32,874 bases of DNA from Deltaproteobacteria bacterium (lineage in GTDB: Bacteria; Myxococcota; Kuafuiibacteriia; Kuafuiibacteriales; Kuafuiibacteriaceae). Positions 1 to 32,874 of this stretch are shown piece by piece (the first letter of the stretch is position 1; each line of letters starts with the position of its first letter). The notes beneath the pieces are model-generated. The model searched no databases. It saw only the letters and a list, made by a program, of their open reading frames with translations, and was not told the origin of the DNA. The stretch spans positions 1-32,874 of the forward strand of contig JAVJQW010000026.1 in the NCBI GenBank assembly GCA_040218735.1. Direction: 5' to 3'. A program made the position numbers and the translations under genes.

Positions 1-2
1 CG

Positions 3-20
3 TTCTGGGGGAACGCGTAA
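3..20 (+). CDS. Possible last codons (..FWGNA*) of the intron-encoded reverse transcriptase/maturase
   Basis: TAA at 18-20 lies just upstream of domain V, where an intron ORF in domain IV would end. Too short to verify. Confidence 0.3.
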   Translation, partial: FWGNA

Positions 21-125
21 TGCAGCAACTCAAGAGACCACCGGTAAGCCGTGTGCGGGAAATCCGCACGCACGGTTTGAAAGGGGGTCTTGATTCACTC
101 TTCCGCCGAACGGCGGCAAAGGAAT

Positions 126-130
126 AAGGA
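126..130 (+). promoter_or_regulatory. Shine-Dalgarno AAGGA inside intron domain VI, serving the ATG at 138
   Basis: AAGGA, 7-nt spacer, then the ATG that opens a signal-peptide ORF. Confidence 0.7.
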
Positions 131-137
131 TCTACCA

Positions 138-1757
138 ATGAAGTTAGCGCTGCGCATCCTCACGCTCTCCCTCGCACTCGCCAGCTGCGCCGCCTCGGCG
201 CAGACCCGGCCCGACCCCGAGGCGTCGCGGGTCGTCATCTTCAAGGACGGTCACGCGTTGATCGTTCGGACCTTCACCGCCGAGACGAACGAGCGCGGCG
301 AGGTGCACCTCGACGAGGTTCCGGAGGCCGCGATCCTCGGATCGTTCTGGGCGACCTCCGACGCCGGGGATCTGATCGGGATGCACGCCGGTTTCAGGGA
401 CGTCGAGGTGAAGAAGGAGCGCCGCGTCGTTGCGGGATCGCACCACGGGCTGCTCGCCGCCAACGTCGGCAAACGTGTCGAGCTGCGCTACGCGGACGGG
501 GCGACGTTCACCGGGAAGGTCGCCGAGGTGCTCGGACACGACGAGCCAGAGATCGGCTCGGTGTTCGTGCTCGAGACCGCGGACGGCGACGTGGTGCTCT
601 CTACGAAGGGCATCCGGTCGATCGTCACCGACGACATCACCACCGCGCACACCGAGAAGGTCGAGACCAAGGAGCGGAAGAAGCGACTGACGTTGCGCTT
701 CGCGGAGAAGAACGCGCGCCGCGAGATCACGCTGACGTACTTTCGACCGGGGGTGCGTTGGATCCCGACGTACCGACTCGATCTCGAGTCATCGAAGAAG
801 GCGAAGCTCACGCTGCAGGCGGAGATCATCAACGAGGCCGAGGATCTCAGCGGTCTGCCGATCGACGTGATCGTCGGCGTCCCGAACTTTCGCTTCAAGG
901 ACGCAGTGAGCCCGATGATCCTCGAAGCGCGCTTGAAGCAGACCCTCGCCGCCGTGGCGCCCTCGCTCTCCGCGCAGGTGCAGTCGTTCTCCAACGCGAG
1001 CTACGAGCGTCGGGCGCCCGAGGAGCGCGCGGCGGTCGCGGCGCTCCCGTCGGAGCTCGCCGGATCGCTGCAGGGGGATCTGTTCGTCTTCTCGCTCCCG
1101 GCGATGGAGCTGCGCCGCGGTGACCGCGCGGCGGTTCGGGTCTTCGAACGCAAGGTGTCGTACCGCCACGTGTACACCTGGGACCTCCAGCTGCGGACGG
1201 GCTCACTCGTCCGCACGCCCGCGCAGATCGGTTCGCCGCTCGACATCGCTAAGAACGAAGTCTGGCACCAGCTCGAGCTCACGAACGACACCGACACGGT
1301 GTGGACGACGGGCGCGGTGATGGTGATGAGCGACGGGCGTCCGCTCGCGCAGGAGCTGATGACGTACACGTCGCGCGGCGATCGCGTTCGAGTGCCGCTG
1401 ACGATCTCCGTCGAGACGCGCGGCACGGCGGACGAGGAGGAGACGGGACGCAAGCTCGACGCGCTGCGGTGGGACCACAAGGCGTACGCACGGGTGGATC
1501 GGAAGGCGAAGCTGTCGTTGTGCAATCACAAGCCGGAGGCGATCGACGTGGAGGTCACGCTGCACCTCGGCGGGCGGGCTACGAAGGCGAGCCACAAGGG
1601 CAAGGTCGTCCTCGGTCCGTATCGGTCGCAGGACTGGGCGCGGTACCGCGGCTCACCCGCGGTGAACAACAGCTCGACGGTGAAGTGGACGCGGCGGCTC
1701 GGTCCCGGCGAGACGTTCGAGCCCACCGTCGTGTACCGCTACTTCGACGTGCAGTAG
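138..1757 (+). CDS. Secreted DUF4139-like protein
   Basis: Signal peptide MKLALRILTLSLALASCAASA. Motifs SRVVIFKDGHALI, LTYFRPGVRWIPTYRLDL, GDLFVFSL and WHQLELTNDTDTVWTTG resemble DUF4139 proteins. Start moved from 90 to 138. Confidence 0.75.
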   Translation: MKLALRILTLSLALASCAASAQTRPDPEASRVVIFKDGHALIVRTFTAETNERGEVHLDEVPEAAILGSFWATSDAGDLIGMHAGFRDVEVKKERRVVAGSHHGLLAANVGKRVELRYADGATFTGKVAEVLGHDEPEIGSVFVLETADGDVVLSTKGIRSIVTDDITTAHTEKVETKERKKRLTLRFAEKNARREITLTYFRPGVRWIPTYRLDLESSKKAKLTLQAEIINEAEDLSGLPIDVIVGVPNFRFKDAVSPMILEARLKQTLAAVAPSLSAQVQSFSNASYERRAPEERAAVAALPSELAGSLQGDLFVFSLPAMELRRGDRAAVRVFERKVSYRHVYTWDLQLRTGSLVRTPAQIGSPLDIAKNEVWHQLELTNDTDTVWTTGAVMVMSDGRPLAQELMTYTSRGDRVRVPLTISVETRGTADEEETGRKLDALRWDHKAYARVDRKAKLSLCNHKPEAIDVEVTLHLGGRATKASHKGKVVLGPYRSQDWARYRGSPAVNNSSTVKWTRRLGPGETFEPTVVYRYFDVQ

Positions 1758-32113: not shown

Positions 32114-32721
32114 GTCGGGCCAGCGGATACTGCTTTAGGCCCAATGCCGGTGAGTTAGCGGATCTGGCCACCTGGAAAGGCCGTAGGCGGGGCATGACGC
32201 GCCCGACGCACCTTGGAACGATCGCCCGACGCTGGTGCCCCCGCCGGCCCGCGCGGGCCGCGCTCCACGTCGGTAGGAGGACGGCGGTCGACTCCGCTCG
32301 ATGGCCGGCGCTCGCAGTGCTCCGTATGTTGCGGTCGCGGCGCGGCCATCCCCCTGATGGAGCTTCGCGGCCTCGCACGCGAGTGACCCACGCCGCCTTC
32401 GACGCGTTCACGAGACCACGGGGTTGAGCGTCGGATGATTGCGCCGGCGGCGGTCGAGGGCTGCGATGGACCGGTGAGGTTCGCCGGCTGGGTAGGGGGA
32501 ATGGGCGGTCGCGCAAGTTGAGTTGCGGAAGAATTTTCGTTCTCTTTTGGGGGTTGACGGAATTGGAGGCCCTGTCCGGGCCATCTGTTCGACGAACGCA
32601 GCGCATTTCGAAGTTTTTGGACTTGGACTCGTCTTCGGATGCTGACGGTCCGTATCGTGCGTCCTCGCACGTCTCGGGCCGTCATTCTCGGACCGCGCCA
32701 AATCGCGTTTCGAGGGCTCGA

Positions 32722-32739
32722 TGATATCTTCGTCGCATG
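32722..32739 (+). promoter_or_regulatory. Putative extended -10 (TG-A-TATCTT) 6 nt before an ATG (leaderless-type start)
   Basis: TGATATCTTcgtcgcATG; no Shine-Dalgarno close to the ATG. Confidence 0.4.
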
Positions 32740-32874
32740 GTGCGTCGTGACGCGGACGGATCCGGAGACGCGCAAGCGTCGACGGATCGGTGCGCTGGCT
32801 ACGCCTCTCCAACGGATGAGAGTTCCGTCCCGGTAAGCGCCGGAGCGCCGGGTAGCAGGCCCCAGGTCGAGAAG
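32740..32874 (+). mobile_element. Probable group II intron 5' end (start of domain I); truncated by window end
   Basis: Begins with the consensus GTGCG. Dense hairpins follow (GATCCG..GACGC-GCAA-GCGTC..CGGATC; CTCTC..GAGAG; CCCGG..CCGGG), then GTAGCAG. Similar in length to the intron fragment at the other end. Confidence 0.6.

What the first reader, a model, noticed from the sequence alone, without database searches (positions are those of the whole stretch)
32722..32874. Second intron copy apparently inserted immediately after an ATG (ATG|GTGCG): a start-codon-targeting retroelement flanking the window
Seen: ...cgtcgcATG is followed directly by GTGCG and a hairpin-rich 135-nt stretch running to the window edge. 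The other edge carries 140 nt of intron 3' end finishing in ATG. Inference: the contig is broken at two copies of one multicopy intron with the structure ATG|GUGCG...AAGGA-7-AUG|codon 2. Insertion would duplicate the start codon, capture the host promoter and leave the host ORF usable whether or not it is spliced. This independently supports the AUG 3' end.
Basis: partly seen in the sequence, partly recalled or inferred. Interest (0 to 1): 0.82.

Follow-up and report, generated by a model that had tools for sequence, protein, structure and literature searches.

The report
Intron lineage living on start codons
Both ends of this window are copies of one mobile self-splicing intron that always sits exactly between a gene's start codon and its second codon, apparently at genes whose messenger RNA begins at the start codon itself, and that carries a spare AUG at its own end.

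Summary
Observation confirmed. Window 32740-32874 is the first 135 nt of a 2,052-nt group II intron placed right after an ATG. Window 1-140 is the last 140 nt of another copy, ending in the ATG that starts a 539-aa ORF.

The genome holds five identical 5' junctions, all CATG|GTGCG, and four 3' junctions plus a contig end, all CUACCAAUG|A.

- **Family-wide:** in relatives from many phyla, 61 of 62 determinable 5' junctions follow ATG, GTG or TTG, and 57 of 57 3' ends are (A/G)UG.
- **Splice sites:** covariation places them directly after both triplets. EBS3 pairs with the first base of codon 2 in 50 of 56 introns. EBS1 reads only -4 to -1. No EBS2 signal was found.
60 of 61 upstream flanks carry TANNNT 6-8 nt before the start codon. 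That is the signature of leaderless genes, so the RNA 5' exon may be AUG alone.
- **Reading frame:** the frame opened by the host start codon has no stop up to the intron protein's ATG in 30 of 61 introns, against 0 of 61 in the other frames.

No transcript data exist. The lineage differs from the published IIB1 start/stop-codon clade. The scan met this lineage before on other DNA (e1-2078247, e1-2078248, e1-3609343).

The parts
1..140 (+). Last 140 nt of intron copy A: end of the intron protein gene (stop TAA at 18-20), domain V, domain VI, and the terminal AUG.
   Evidence: RF00029 at 44.4 bits, window 44-139. Identical to C20:288418-288557, the end of the full copy. Fold with DV and DVI, z-score -4.28.
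134..134 (+). Bulged adenosine of domain VI, the presumed branch point, 7th nt from the intron end.
   Evidence: It is the only unpaired base inside the DVI helix in the minimum-free-energy fold. A is invariant at this position in 58 of 58 3' ends.
138..140 (+). The intron's invariant 3'-terminal AUG. It serves as the start codon of the downstream host ORF in the DNA as it stands.
   Evidence: Of 57 relatives' 3' ends, 53 read ACCAATG, 3 ACCAGTG and 1 ACCTATG. The EBS3 column covaries with the next base.
138..1757 (+). Host gene, 539 aa, with an N-terminal signal-peptide-like sequence. Codon 2 onward is the 3' exon.
   Evidence: ORF. Weak DUF4139 and MuiA-family matches, both below cut-off. 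The intron-less ortholog in same-genus genome G001 starts at the same ATG-AAG. Its upstream DNA matches the C23 flank, so the 5' junction of this copy lies on C23.
32722..32730 (+). Extended -10-like promoter element: TG-a-TATCTT, with the hexamer at 32725-32730, 6 nt upstream of the start codon.
   Evidence: Sequence. TANNNT lies 6-8 nt before the start codon in 60 of 61 flanks of related introns and own copies. The same element is present in 20 empty paralogous sites. The promoter function is inferred.
32737..32739 (+). Host start codon ATG of an HNH-like multicopy gene. It is the last 3 nt of the 5' exon and part of IBS1 (CATG, 32736-32739).
   Evidence: 23 family members, 3 occupied, 20 empty, all with a single ATG followed by AGC... 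Covariation of -3 and -4 with the EBS1 loop.
32740..32874 (+). First 135 nt of intron copy B: GUGCG, a variable about 35-nt hairpin, and the start of domain I.
   Evidence: 100% identical to C20:286506-286640. Partial RF02003 match. Fold energy -64.6 kcal/mol, z-score -2.28.

Best explanation
The finding is the 5' junction of a mobile group II intron. The intron is 2,052 nt long and encodes a 453-aa reverse transcriptase/maturase with no endonuclease domain. It belongs to a monophyletic, multi-phylum lineage that resides exactly between the start codon and codon 2 of diverse genes.

**Shown**
- The intron begins right after the host ATG, GTG or TTG, and it ends in its own invariant ...CUACCAAUG.
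- Target recognition by base pairing is minimal. EBS1 (CAUG, intron nt 259-262) reads -4 to -1. EBS3 (U325) reads the first base of codon 2, which is A at all sites in this genome. No EBS2 partner is detectable.
- The sites lie 6-8 nt downstream of a TANNNT hexamer.
- The reading frame opened by the host start codon stays open through ribozyme domains I-III. In this clade it is in phase with the intron protein.

**Inferred**
- The hexamer is the -10 box of leaderless genes. The transcript then starts at the A of AUG, and the RNA 5' exon is only AUG.
- Ribosomes that load on this 5'-terminal AUG read into, or couple to, the intron protein gene.
- The terminal AUG is preceded in this clade by AGGA 7 nt upstream. 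It keeps the host ORF startable without splicing, while splicing restores the original leaderless mRNA.

My odds: intron copy at a start codon 0.97; lineage-wide start-codon residence 0.95; leaderless reading 0.7; intron protein translated from the host AUG 0.5.
For: **In this genome**
- There are 5 5' junctions, all CATG|GTGCG. There are 4 3' junctions plus one contig end, all CUACCAAUG|A.
- The terminal ATG opens ORFs of 539, 382, 330 and 330 aa.
- Empty sites carry a single ATG. This holds for 20 paralogous sites in this genome and for intron-less orthologs of both ectopic host genes in same-genus genome G001.

**Identity as an intron**
- RNA matches: RF00029; RF02003 at 72.9 bits and RF02005 at 55.1 bits.
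- Protein matches: TIGR04416 at 419.7 bits against a cut-off of 300, plus RVT_1 and GIIM, with no nuclease domain.

**Relatives**
- Of 66 loci examined, 62 gave a determinable 5' junction: ATG 50, GTG 10, TTG 1, ATT 1. Of the same 66, 57 gave a 3' end: ACCAATG 53, ACCAGTG 3, ACCTATG 1.
- 44 of 50 informative junctions have an ORF of at least 100 codons starting at the terminal AUG.
- 9 of 10 sampled host ORFs carry full Pfam domains starting at residues 6-87, including MnmE, SDR, DegT, GntR and MFS.

**Covariation**
- The column of own nt 325 against the base after AUG: 50 of 56 Watson-Crick, 53 of 56 counting G-U. The next best column scores 0.50, and 0 of 200 permutations reach the observed value.
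- nt 262 against -4: 50 of 62 Watson-Crick, 58 of 62 paired, 0 of 200 permutations.
- nt 261 against -3: 55 of 62 Watson-Crick.
- No column rises above 0.52 for -5 to -8.

**The -10 box**
- TANNNT occurs at spacing 6 (38 flanks), 7 (19) or 8 (3) in 60 of 61 flanks. It occurs at no flank at spacings 0-5 or 9-15.
- In this genome only 75 of 13,862 unoccupied CATGA sites have the box at spacing 6-7. All 5 occupied sites have it.
- Genome-wide, the box peaks at 6-9 nt before the first start codon of long ORFs: 149, 94, 89 and 139 ORFs, against about 15-60 at other spacings and about 10 at internal codons.

**Reading frame**
- The host-phase frame has zero stops up to the intron protein's ATG in 30 of 61 introns, against 0 of 61 in each other frame. 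The median open lengths are 162, 17 and 3 codons.
- In the clade with at least 62% protein identity, 21 of 23 are open and in phase. Their eight different lengths (531-588 nt) are all multiples of 3.
- In the own copy the frame is stop-free over 570 nt, against 0.7% of shuffles.

**Tree and branch point**
- The 63 start-codon rows plus 2 rows of undetermined junction form one group, SH-aLRT 95.
- The DVI bulged A is the 7th nt from the end.
Against: - **No transcript data.** No RNA run is listed for this organism. The transcription start at the A of ATG, splicing and translation are therefore all unobserved.
- **One site is not a conserved leaderless gene.** This is the PALP gene, with its 5' flank on C24. 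In G001 its ortholog lies 20 nt after the upstream gene's stop and has no TANNNT at the right spacing. There the hexamer may be only a look-alike that the intron recognises or tolerates.
- **Unusual first base.** 16 of 62 introns start with U (UUGCG or UCGCG) instead of the near-universal G. Ending in UG rather than AY is also unusual by my recall of group II consensus. A one-base shift of both splice sites is therefore not fully excluded, and ligated exons would be identical either way.
- **Own protein start is conserved.** The intron protein's own ATG (GAGGG-N-ATG) is conserved in all clades, so translation from the host AUG is not needed to explain expression.
- **Frame exceptions.** 31 of 61 introns have at least one stop in the host-phase frame. 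5 of them stop within 57 codons (L012, L051, L062, L064, L070). Two close relatives are out of phase by 1 nt (L012, L024).
- **SD-like motif is not family-wide.** It precedes the terminal AUG in only 20 of 58.
- **Short downstream ORFs.** 6 of 50 informative 3' junctions have ORFs under 100 codons.
- **Non-independence.** The sequences are related, so counts across them overstate independence.
Confidence: 0.8

Rival explanations
1. The hexamer and start codon form a DNA target that the intron particle itself recognises, either through protein contacts or as single-stranded DNA in an open promoter complex. On this reading the association is mechanistic targeting, not a consequence of needing a promoter.
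For: Base pairing covers only 5 nt, -4 to +1, which is too little to explain the specificity. All 5 occupied sites in this genome carry the box, against 75 of 13,862 unoccupied CATGA sites. The PALP site has the hexamer in this genome, yet its ortholog in G001 looks operonic and lacks it. The copies are 100% identical, so little time has passed for selection.
Against: No experiment or structural evidence exists. The hexamer is also what a leaderless promoter looks like, and it pre-exists in empty sites. Strongly harmful insertions vanish at once, so selection cannot be excluded. This reading is compatible with the best explanation: it concerns how the intron gets there, not what it is.
Confidence: 0.3
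2. Both splice sites lie one base upstream (AU|G-GUGCG ... CCAAU|G). The intron would then start with the G of the start codon and end in the canonical AU.
For: 16 of 62 introns have U, not G, right after the start codon, whereas the third base of the start codon is G in 61 of 62. An AU end would match the usual group II 3' end, by my recall. The ligated exons would be identical under either register.
Against: The EBS3 column covaries with the base after AUG, not with the invariant G. IBS1 positions -3 and -4 pair with the loop in a register that places -1, the G, opposite the loop C. The bulged A is then 6 nt rather than 7 nt from the end. GCG would sit at positions 4-6 instead of 3-5.
Confidence: 0.08
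3. [quoted passage not shown]
For: The behaviour is the same in kind: start-codon position, with the host gene left readable (Introduction and Discussion of PMC12584367).
Against: That clade is defined by a 300-700-nt subdomain Ia near the 5' end, and EcKTE56.groEL is 3,228 nt long. Here the whole stretch from the 5' end to the protein's ATG is 570 nt, and 482-588 nt in relatives, with only a hairpin of about 35 nt. The protein has 453 aa and no endonuclease domain. Hosts span many phyla. The nearest outgroup sits after hairpin plus T-run terminators.
Confidence: 0.04
4. The open frame from the host start codon is a by-product of G+C-rich, conserved ribozyme sequence and is never translated.
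For: The genome is 69% G+C, so long open frames are common: 32% of ordinary CATGA sites open at least 150 codons. The protein's own ATG is conserved. Half of the introns have at least one stop in that frame.
Against: 0 of 61 introns are stop-free in either other frame, against 30 of 61 in the host phase. Eight different lengths are all multiples of 3 in the close clade. In other clades the frame ends 6 nt before the protein's ATG or overlaps it (L058, L060, L061, L067, L068, L073, L075). Only 0.7% of shuffles of the own sequence are stop-free.
Confidence: 0.3

Closest known systems
Specialised IIB1 clade at initiation or termination codons (Avi.groEL, EcKTE56.groEL; Michel et al. 2007, as summarised in PMC12584367, whose Introduction and Discussion I read)
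   Same: Both are group II introns positioned exactly at a translation signal of a host gene, so that the host reading frame stays usable. Both are active retrotransposons and depend on host transcription.
   Different: The published clade carries a 300-700-nt subdomain Ia and is described from proteobacterial housekeeping genes. Its studied member is 3,228 nt long and is called IIB1/CL1. The present lineage has no such insertion, a 453-aa endonuclease-less protein, an RF02003-type domain I, an invariant 3' AUG, hosts in many phyla and a -10 hexamer at fixed spacing. I could not read Michel et al. 2007 itself.
Group IIC (class C) introns that insert after Rho-independent terminators or attC hairpins
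   Same: Both show very short exon pairing, here a 4-nt IBS1 plus IBS3 with no detectable EBS2. Both have an endonuclease-less RT/maturase and target a gene-boundary signal rather than a long unique sequence. The nearest outgroup in my tree (11 Bacillota rows at 46-54% protein identity, same RF02003 RNA type) sits after hairpin plus T-run sequences. PDB chains of IIC RTs are the best sequence matches, by a small margin.
   Different: The site is the other end of the gene: after the start codon and a promoter hexamer, not after a terminator hairpin. The IIC structural hallmarks were not tested, so membership is open.
Yeast mitochondrial group II introns whose protein frame continues from the upstream exon (recalled, not from a call)
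   Same: The intron protein frame is open through domains I-III and in phase with the upstream exon.
   Different: Here the upstream exon would be a single codon, the AUG. The host is bacterial, and the protein keeps its own conserved internal ATG.
Earlier notes of this scan on other genomes (e1-2078247, e1-2078248, e1-3609343)
   Same: They describe a widespread intron lineage that lands just after start codons, with a spare start codon (and ribosome-binding site) in its tail and an unbroken frame through its body.
   Different: Those were ORF-less copies of about 0.7 kb, placed 'one base after the start codon'. Here the copy is full-length with its RT. The splice sites are set by covariation directly after the AUG, and the promoter-hexamer (leaderless) association is added. 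Whether they belong to the same clade was not tested.

Membership tests
Group II intron (mobile, ORF-containing) | 5' end GUGYG and a conserved domain V/VI with a bulged A near the 3' end | tested here: met
   GUGCG at 32740-32744. RF00029 at 44.4 bits against a gathering score of 40. The bulged A is the 7th nt from the end.
Group II intron (mobile, ORF-containing) | Domain I architecture | tested here: met
   In the full copy, RF02003 scores 72.9 bits and RF02005 55.1 bits, both against gathering scores of 49.
Group II intron (mobile, ORF-containing) | Intron-encoded reverse transcriptase with a maturase (X) domain in domain IV | tested here: met
   TIGR04416 at 419.7 bits against a cut-off of 300. 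RVT_1 at E 9.6e-34 and GIIM at E 1.4e-18.
Group II intron (mobile, ORF-containing) | Exon recognition by EBS1-IBS1 and EBS3-IBS3 pairing | tested here: met
   Covariation across 56-62 introns, with 0 of 200 permutations reaching the observed values.
Group II intron (mobile, ORF-containing) | Self-splicing and retromobility | not testable with these tools
   The evidence is indirect only: at least 5 identical copies at different sites, and 20 empty paralogous sites.
Specialised IIB1 start/stop-codon clade (Michel 2007, via PMC12584367) | Insertion within or next to an initiation or termination codon | tested here: met
Specialised IIB1 start/stop-codon clade (Michel 2007, via PMC12584367) | Large (about 300-700 nt) 5'-subterminal insertion, subdomain Ia | tested here: not met
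   The 5' end to the protein's ATG spans 570 nt here and 482-588 nt in 61 relatives. The variable 5' hairpin is about 35 nt.
Specialised IIB1 start/stop-codon clade (Michel 2007, via PMC12584367) | IIB1 ribozyme with a CL1-lineage RT | not tested
   No reference sequences of that clade were on hand. The protein lacks any domain beyond RT and X.
Group IIC / class C | Short IBS1 plus IBS3, with no EBS2-IBS2 pairing | tested here: met
   Pairing is supported only for -4 to -1 and +1. No column rises above 0.52 for -5 to -8.
Group IIC / class C | Insertion just downstream of a terminator or attC hairpin | tested here: not met
   61 of 62 sites follow a start codon, and 60 of 61 lie 6-8 nt after TANNNT. 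Hairpin plus T-run contexts were seen, by eye, only in the Bacillota outgroup (L076, L078, L080, L089).
Group IIC / class C | IIC-specific ribozyme structure and class C RT phylogeny | not tested
   PDB IIC RTs are the best hits, but only marginally: E 3.5e-50 to 1.5e-48, against 3.3e-44 for LtrA.
Class F / groups g1-g4 of endonuclease-less intron ORFs (Toro and Martinez-Abarca 2013, PMC3552965) | Placement by the X-domain plus C-terminal extension phylogeny with named reference introns | not testable with these tools
   The reference sequences are in supplements that are closed. Passages of that paper retrieved by term search never mention ATG, start codon or initiation (0 occurrences each).

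The most novel reading that the evidence does not exclude
A monophyletic lineage of endonuclease-less group II introns, spread over at least nine phyla, is specialised for the first codon of leaderless genes.

- It lands 3 nt downstream of the transcription start, so that its RNA 5' exon is just pppAUG.
- It uses the host's 5'-terminal AUG to load ribosomes that read through the ribozyme into, or up to, its reverse-transcriptase gene.
- It compensates the host with an invariant AUG as its own last three nucleotides.
- Its targeting may read the promoter itself (the -10 hexamer or the open complex) rather than a long exon sequence.
Probability: 0.45. Interest if true: 0.9.

Novelty: new variant of a known kind. 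Interest (0 to 1): 0.8.

Why it matters
[quoted passage not shown] [is] currently unknown' (PMC12584367, Introduction). The present lineage is apparently independent and much more widespread. It shows the same behaviour, with sequence features that make a mechanism testable.
- **Testable features.** These are a 5-nt paired target, a promoter hexamer at fixed distance, an invariant terminal AUG, and a host-phased open frame.
- **If the leaderless reading holds.** This would be an intron whose 5' exon is a single codon. It would link retroelement expression to leaderless translation.
- **Annotation.** The annotated start codon of many genes would be intron RNA, and their real 5' ends would lie 2 kb upstream.
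- **Assembly.** These elements break contigs.
- **Engineering.** A short, rule-based target may be of use for intron-based gene targeting.

Tried and rejected
- **Chance GTGCG after ATG.** Rejected.
- **Second GGTGCG at intron nt 50-55 as the real 5' end.** Rejected. Relatives align from nt 1 (GUGCGUCGUGACG) and differ only in the hairpin that follows. EBS1 also matches CAUG, not the bases before nt 51.
- **EBS2.** I looked for it in the 13-nt internal loop (nt 229-241) and among GAAG motifs. The apparent conservation at -15 to -10 turned out to be TANNNT, and no covarying column exists.
- **Intron-borne -10 box before the terminal AUG.** Found in only 8 of 58, so dropped as a family feature.
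- **RNA evidence.** No RNA holder is listed for window 32300-32874.
- **First tblastn of the intron protein.** It used a mis-framed translation and is void. It was replaced, which found one match in the own genome at E <= 1e-60.
- **Relatives of the host.** No close copy of this intron was found in the 40 other genomes searched. The best protein identity was 40-49%, which belongs to other intron types. G001, the same-genus genome, is 75% complete.
- **First MAFFT alignment of upstream regions.** It misaligned the short-5' clade and was replaced by motif-anchored junction calls.
- **Literature.** 'Group II intron' with 'leaderless' gave 14 papers, none on this by title or abstract. Michel et al. 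2007 (Biochimie) and Simon et al. 2008 (RNA) are not held. Either may describe this lineage, and supplements were closed.
- **Class assignment.** It could not be settled.
Full report
**1. The observation**

The right end of the window reads ...gaTGaTATCTTcgtcgcATG|GTGCGTCGTGACG..., with ATG at 32737-32739 and GTGCG at 32740-32744. The left end reads ...CTACCAATG|AAGTTA..., with ATG at 138-140.

- Rfam finds a group II domain V/VI at 44-139: RF00029, 44.4 bits against a gathering score of 40.
- Rfam also finds a truncated domain I match at 32810-32874: RF02003, 30.4 bits, cut by the window end.
- The window is contig C25 of an 11.6-Mb, 70-contig genome.
- The 135-nt 5' piece occurs five times at 100% identity, and the 140-nt 3' piece five times. 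Nearly all of these lie at contig ends.
- C20:286506-288557 holds one complete 2,052-nt copy that joins the two pieces.

**2. The element**

- The full copy matches RF02003 (72.9 bits) and RF02005 (55.1 bits) in domain I.
- It encodes a 453-aa protein at intron nt 571-1932. The protein matches TIGR04416 group II RT/maturase at 419.7 bits against a cut-off of 300, and also RVT_1 and GIIM. It has no nuclease domain.
- Domain VI folds with a single bulged A that is the 7th nt from the end, counting the AUG as intron.
- Only one copy of the protein gene is assembled.
- None of the 40 related genomes searched has a close copy. The copies here are identical. Both facts point to a recent arrival.

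**3. The sites in this genome**

All five 5' junctions read CATG|GTGCG. All 3' junctions read CUACCAAUG|A. The terminal ATG opens ORFs of 539, 382, 330 and 330 aa.

- **HNH-like gene family.** Three 5' flanks, including the one in the finding, belong to a multicopy HNH-like gene family. Of 23 family sites, 3 are occupied and 20 are empty. The empty ones have a single ATG followed by AGC....
- **The window's left-end gene.** This gene (138-1757) has an intron-less ortholog in same-genus genome G001 that starts ...TATCGT-cgccggc-ATGAAG. Its upstream DNA matches the C23 flank, so C23 carries the 5' junction of the copy whose tail opens this window.
- **The fifth copy.** It lies between the C24 flank and the PALP-enzyme gene on C66, and G001 has the empty ortholog.

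Insertion thus duplicates the start codon: one copy is the host's and one is the intron's last three bases.

**4. The family**

A protein-based scan of one genome per species returned 591 confirmed relatives, of which the best 80 were kept (51-79% identity). I examined 66 of them for junctions: L011-L075 and L084.

The other 14 (L076-L083, L085-L090, at most 56% identity) were left out of the counts. They have neither junction motif and fall outside the clade in the tree.

- **5' junctions.** 62 of 66 could be determined. The triplet before the intron is ATG in 50, GTG in 10, TTG in 1 and ATT in 1.
- **First five intron bases.** GUGCG in 45, UUGCG in 12, UCGCG in 4 and GUGUG in 1.
- **3' ends.** 57 of 66 could be determined. 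They read ACCAAUG in 53, ACCAGUG in 3 and ACCUAUG in 1.
- **Last nine bases.** CUACCAAUG is essentially invariant in 58 3' ends, including the own copy.
- **Downstream ORFs.** 44 of 50 informative junctions have an ORF of at least 100 codons from the terminal AUG.
- **Host genes.** 9 of 10 sampled host ORFs carry ordinary, unrelated Pfam domains starting at residues 6-87: MnmE, amidohydrolase, MFS, GntR, esterase, SDR, DegT, an HTH/MarR-type regulator and class IV aminotransferase.
- **Tree.** I built a quick maximum-likelihood tree of 79 rows; 2 loci were left out for short matches. The 63 start-codon rows plus L018 and L054, whose 5' junctions are undetermined, form one group (SH-aLRT 95). 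This group is separate from 11 Bacillota rows and from L083, L086 and L088.
- **RNA type.** All 10 loci I scanned share the RF02003 RNA type: 4 from the start-codon clade and 6 from the outgroups.
- **Outgroup context.** The Bacillota relatives I looked at (L076, L078, L080, L089) sit after an inverted repeat plus a T-run, judged by eye. That is terminator-type behaviour.

**5. Where the splice sites are and what is read**

I scanned every column of a 62-row alignment of the 5' intron part for complementarity to flank positions.

| Flank position | Best column (own nt) | Watson-Crick | With G-U | Permutations reaching it |
|---|---|---|---|---|
| Base after terminal AUG | 325 (U here, facing the A at all own sites) | 50 of 56 | 53 of 56 | 0 of 200 |
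| -4 | 262 | 50 of 62 | 58 of 62 | 0 of 200 |
| -3 | 261 | 55 of 62 | 61 of 62 | not run |
| -5 to -8 | none | at most 0.52 | not applicable | not run |

- For the base after the AUG, the runner-up column reaches only 0.50.
- Nucleotides 259-262 lie in the terminal loop CUCAUGUCA of the hairpin that the RF02005 alignment draws.

The intron therefore pairs with N-A/G-U-G on one side and one base on the other. The 3' splice site is directly after the AUG, and there is no sign of an EBS2 partner.

A one-base shift of both sites remains a minor rival. It would give a canonical G...AU intron, and it would explain the 16 introns that start with U. It conflicts with the EBS3 result.

**6. The promoter hexamer**

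What first looked like an IBS2 is TANNNT.

- It ends 6 nt (38 flanks), 7 nt (19) or 8 nt (3) before the start codon in 60 of 61 flanks. It occurs at no flank at spacings 0-5 or 9-15, and at 0-1 flanks at other offsets.
- No purine-rich ribosome-binding signal is seen in that stretch.
- -4 is C in 44 of 62.
- The hexamer pre-exists in empty sites.
- In this genome, 75 of 13,862 unoccupied CATGA sites have it at spacing 6-7. All five occupied sites have it.
- Genome-wide, it peaks 6-9 nt before the first start codon of long ORFs.

From established knowledge of bacterial promoters and of leaderless transcripts, recalled and not from a call, a -10 hexamer ending 6-7 nt before a purine that is also the first base of the start codon is the signature of leaderless genes. 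I therefore infer that transcripts start at the A or G of the start codon, so the RNA 5' exon is the AUG alone.

This is not shown. No RNA run is available. At the PALP site, moreover, the G001 ortholog looks operonic and lacks the hexamer.

**7. The open frame**

- The frame set by the host start codon has no stop up to the intron protein's ATG in 30 of 61 introns, against 0 of 61 for each other frame. The median open lengths are 162, 17 and 3 codons.
- In the clade with at least 62% protein identity, which includes the own intron, 21 of 23 are open and in phase with the protein. Their eight different lengths, 531-588 nt, are all multiples of 3.
- In other clades the frame stops about 125 nt before the protein's ATG, 6 nt before it, or overlapping it.
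- The own 570-nt stretch is stop-free in 0.7% of shuffles.
- The protein's own ATG is conserved everywhere.

I read this as translation from the host AUG being tolerated and probably used, either to make an N-terminally extended protein or to couple ribosomes to the protein's own start. It remains inference.

**8. The spare AUG**

The terminal AUG is invariant.

The most economical role is to keep the host ORF startable on unspliced RNA, while splicing would restore AUG plus codon 2. Other roles cannot be excluded, for example pairing of the terminal AUG with EBS1.

**9. Comparison with what is known**

- **Published start/stop-codon clade.** It is IIB1 and has a 300-700-nt subdomain Ia. It is described from proteobacterial housekeeping genes, and its means of colonising these codons is stated to be unknown (PMC12584367; I read the Introduction and Discussion). 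The present lineage fails the subdomain Ia criterion, and its protein is short and lacks a nuclease domain.
- **Group IIC.** In exon recognition and in its nearest outgroup, the lineage resembles IIC. It sits at the opposite gene boundary, however.
- **Toro and Martinez-Abarca 2013.** This paper covers endonuclease-less classes. The passages I retrieved by term search never mention ATG, start codon or initiation.
- **Literature gaps.** No held paper links group II introns with leaderless genes, by the titles and abstracts of 14 hits. Michel et al. 2007 and Simon et al. 2008 could not be read, and supplements are closed. Prior description is therefore possible.
- **Earlier scan notes.** Notes on other genomes (e1-2078247, e1-2078248, e1-3609343) already describe a start-codon lineage with a spare start and an open frame. 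I found the phase result before reading them.

**10. Verdict**

The observation and the interpretation are sound. The element is a new variant of a known kind. One well-supported addition is the minimal paired target. Two further additions, the leaderless site and the host-AUG-driven translation, are strongly suggested by sequence statistics but untested.

Noticed in passing
window 32490-32739; also C60:210-1202, C38:121-1113 and about 20 other contigs: A repeat of at least 23 copies made of a conserved upstream region plus a 330-aa gene with a C-terminal HNH-like motif. The gene has no Pfam match and only a weak IscB-HNH match (E 0.0024, below cut-off). Many copies lie at contig ends, so this repeat also breaks the assembly. 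It is the intron's main homing site here.
   Followed up: partly
L040:1668-3001: This relative has about 830 extra nt between domain I and its protein gene. A second intron-like 5' motif (GUGUGUCCUGACGA) lies inside the extra stretch, so it may be a nested intron.
   Followed up: no
L049 and L050 (one metagenome-assembled genome): Two identical copies sit at two different GTG start codons. Both begin with UCGCG rather than GUGCG, so the unusual 5' end belongs to a mobile element.
   Followed up: no
L076, L078, L080, L089, L090 (Bacillota): More distant relatives (46-54% protein identity, same Rfam RF02003 type) lie just after an inverted repeat plus a T-run. This is terminator-type targeting, and they lack the terminal AUG.
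   Followed up: partly
own genome, 75 sites listed: Many unoccupied TANNNT-N6/7-CATG|A sites open long ORFs (38 of 75 have at least 150 codons). This suggests that the organism has many leaderless-type genes and many potential targets still free.
   Followed up: partly
C24:155470-155493 versus L109:1480-1500 (G001): The intergenic DNA before the PALP gene differs between the two same-genus genomes. This genome has TAACCT 2 nt after the upstream stop codon, and G001 has no such hexamer.
   Followed up: partly
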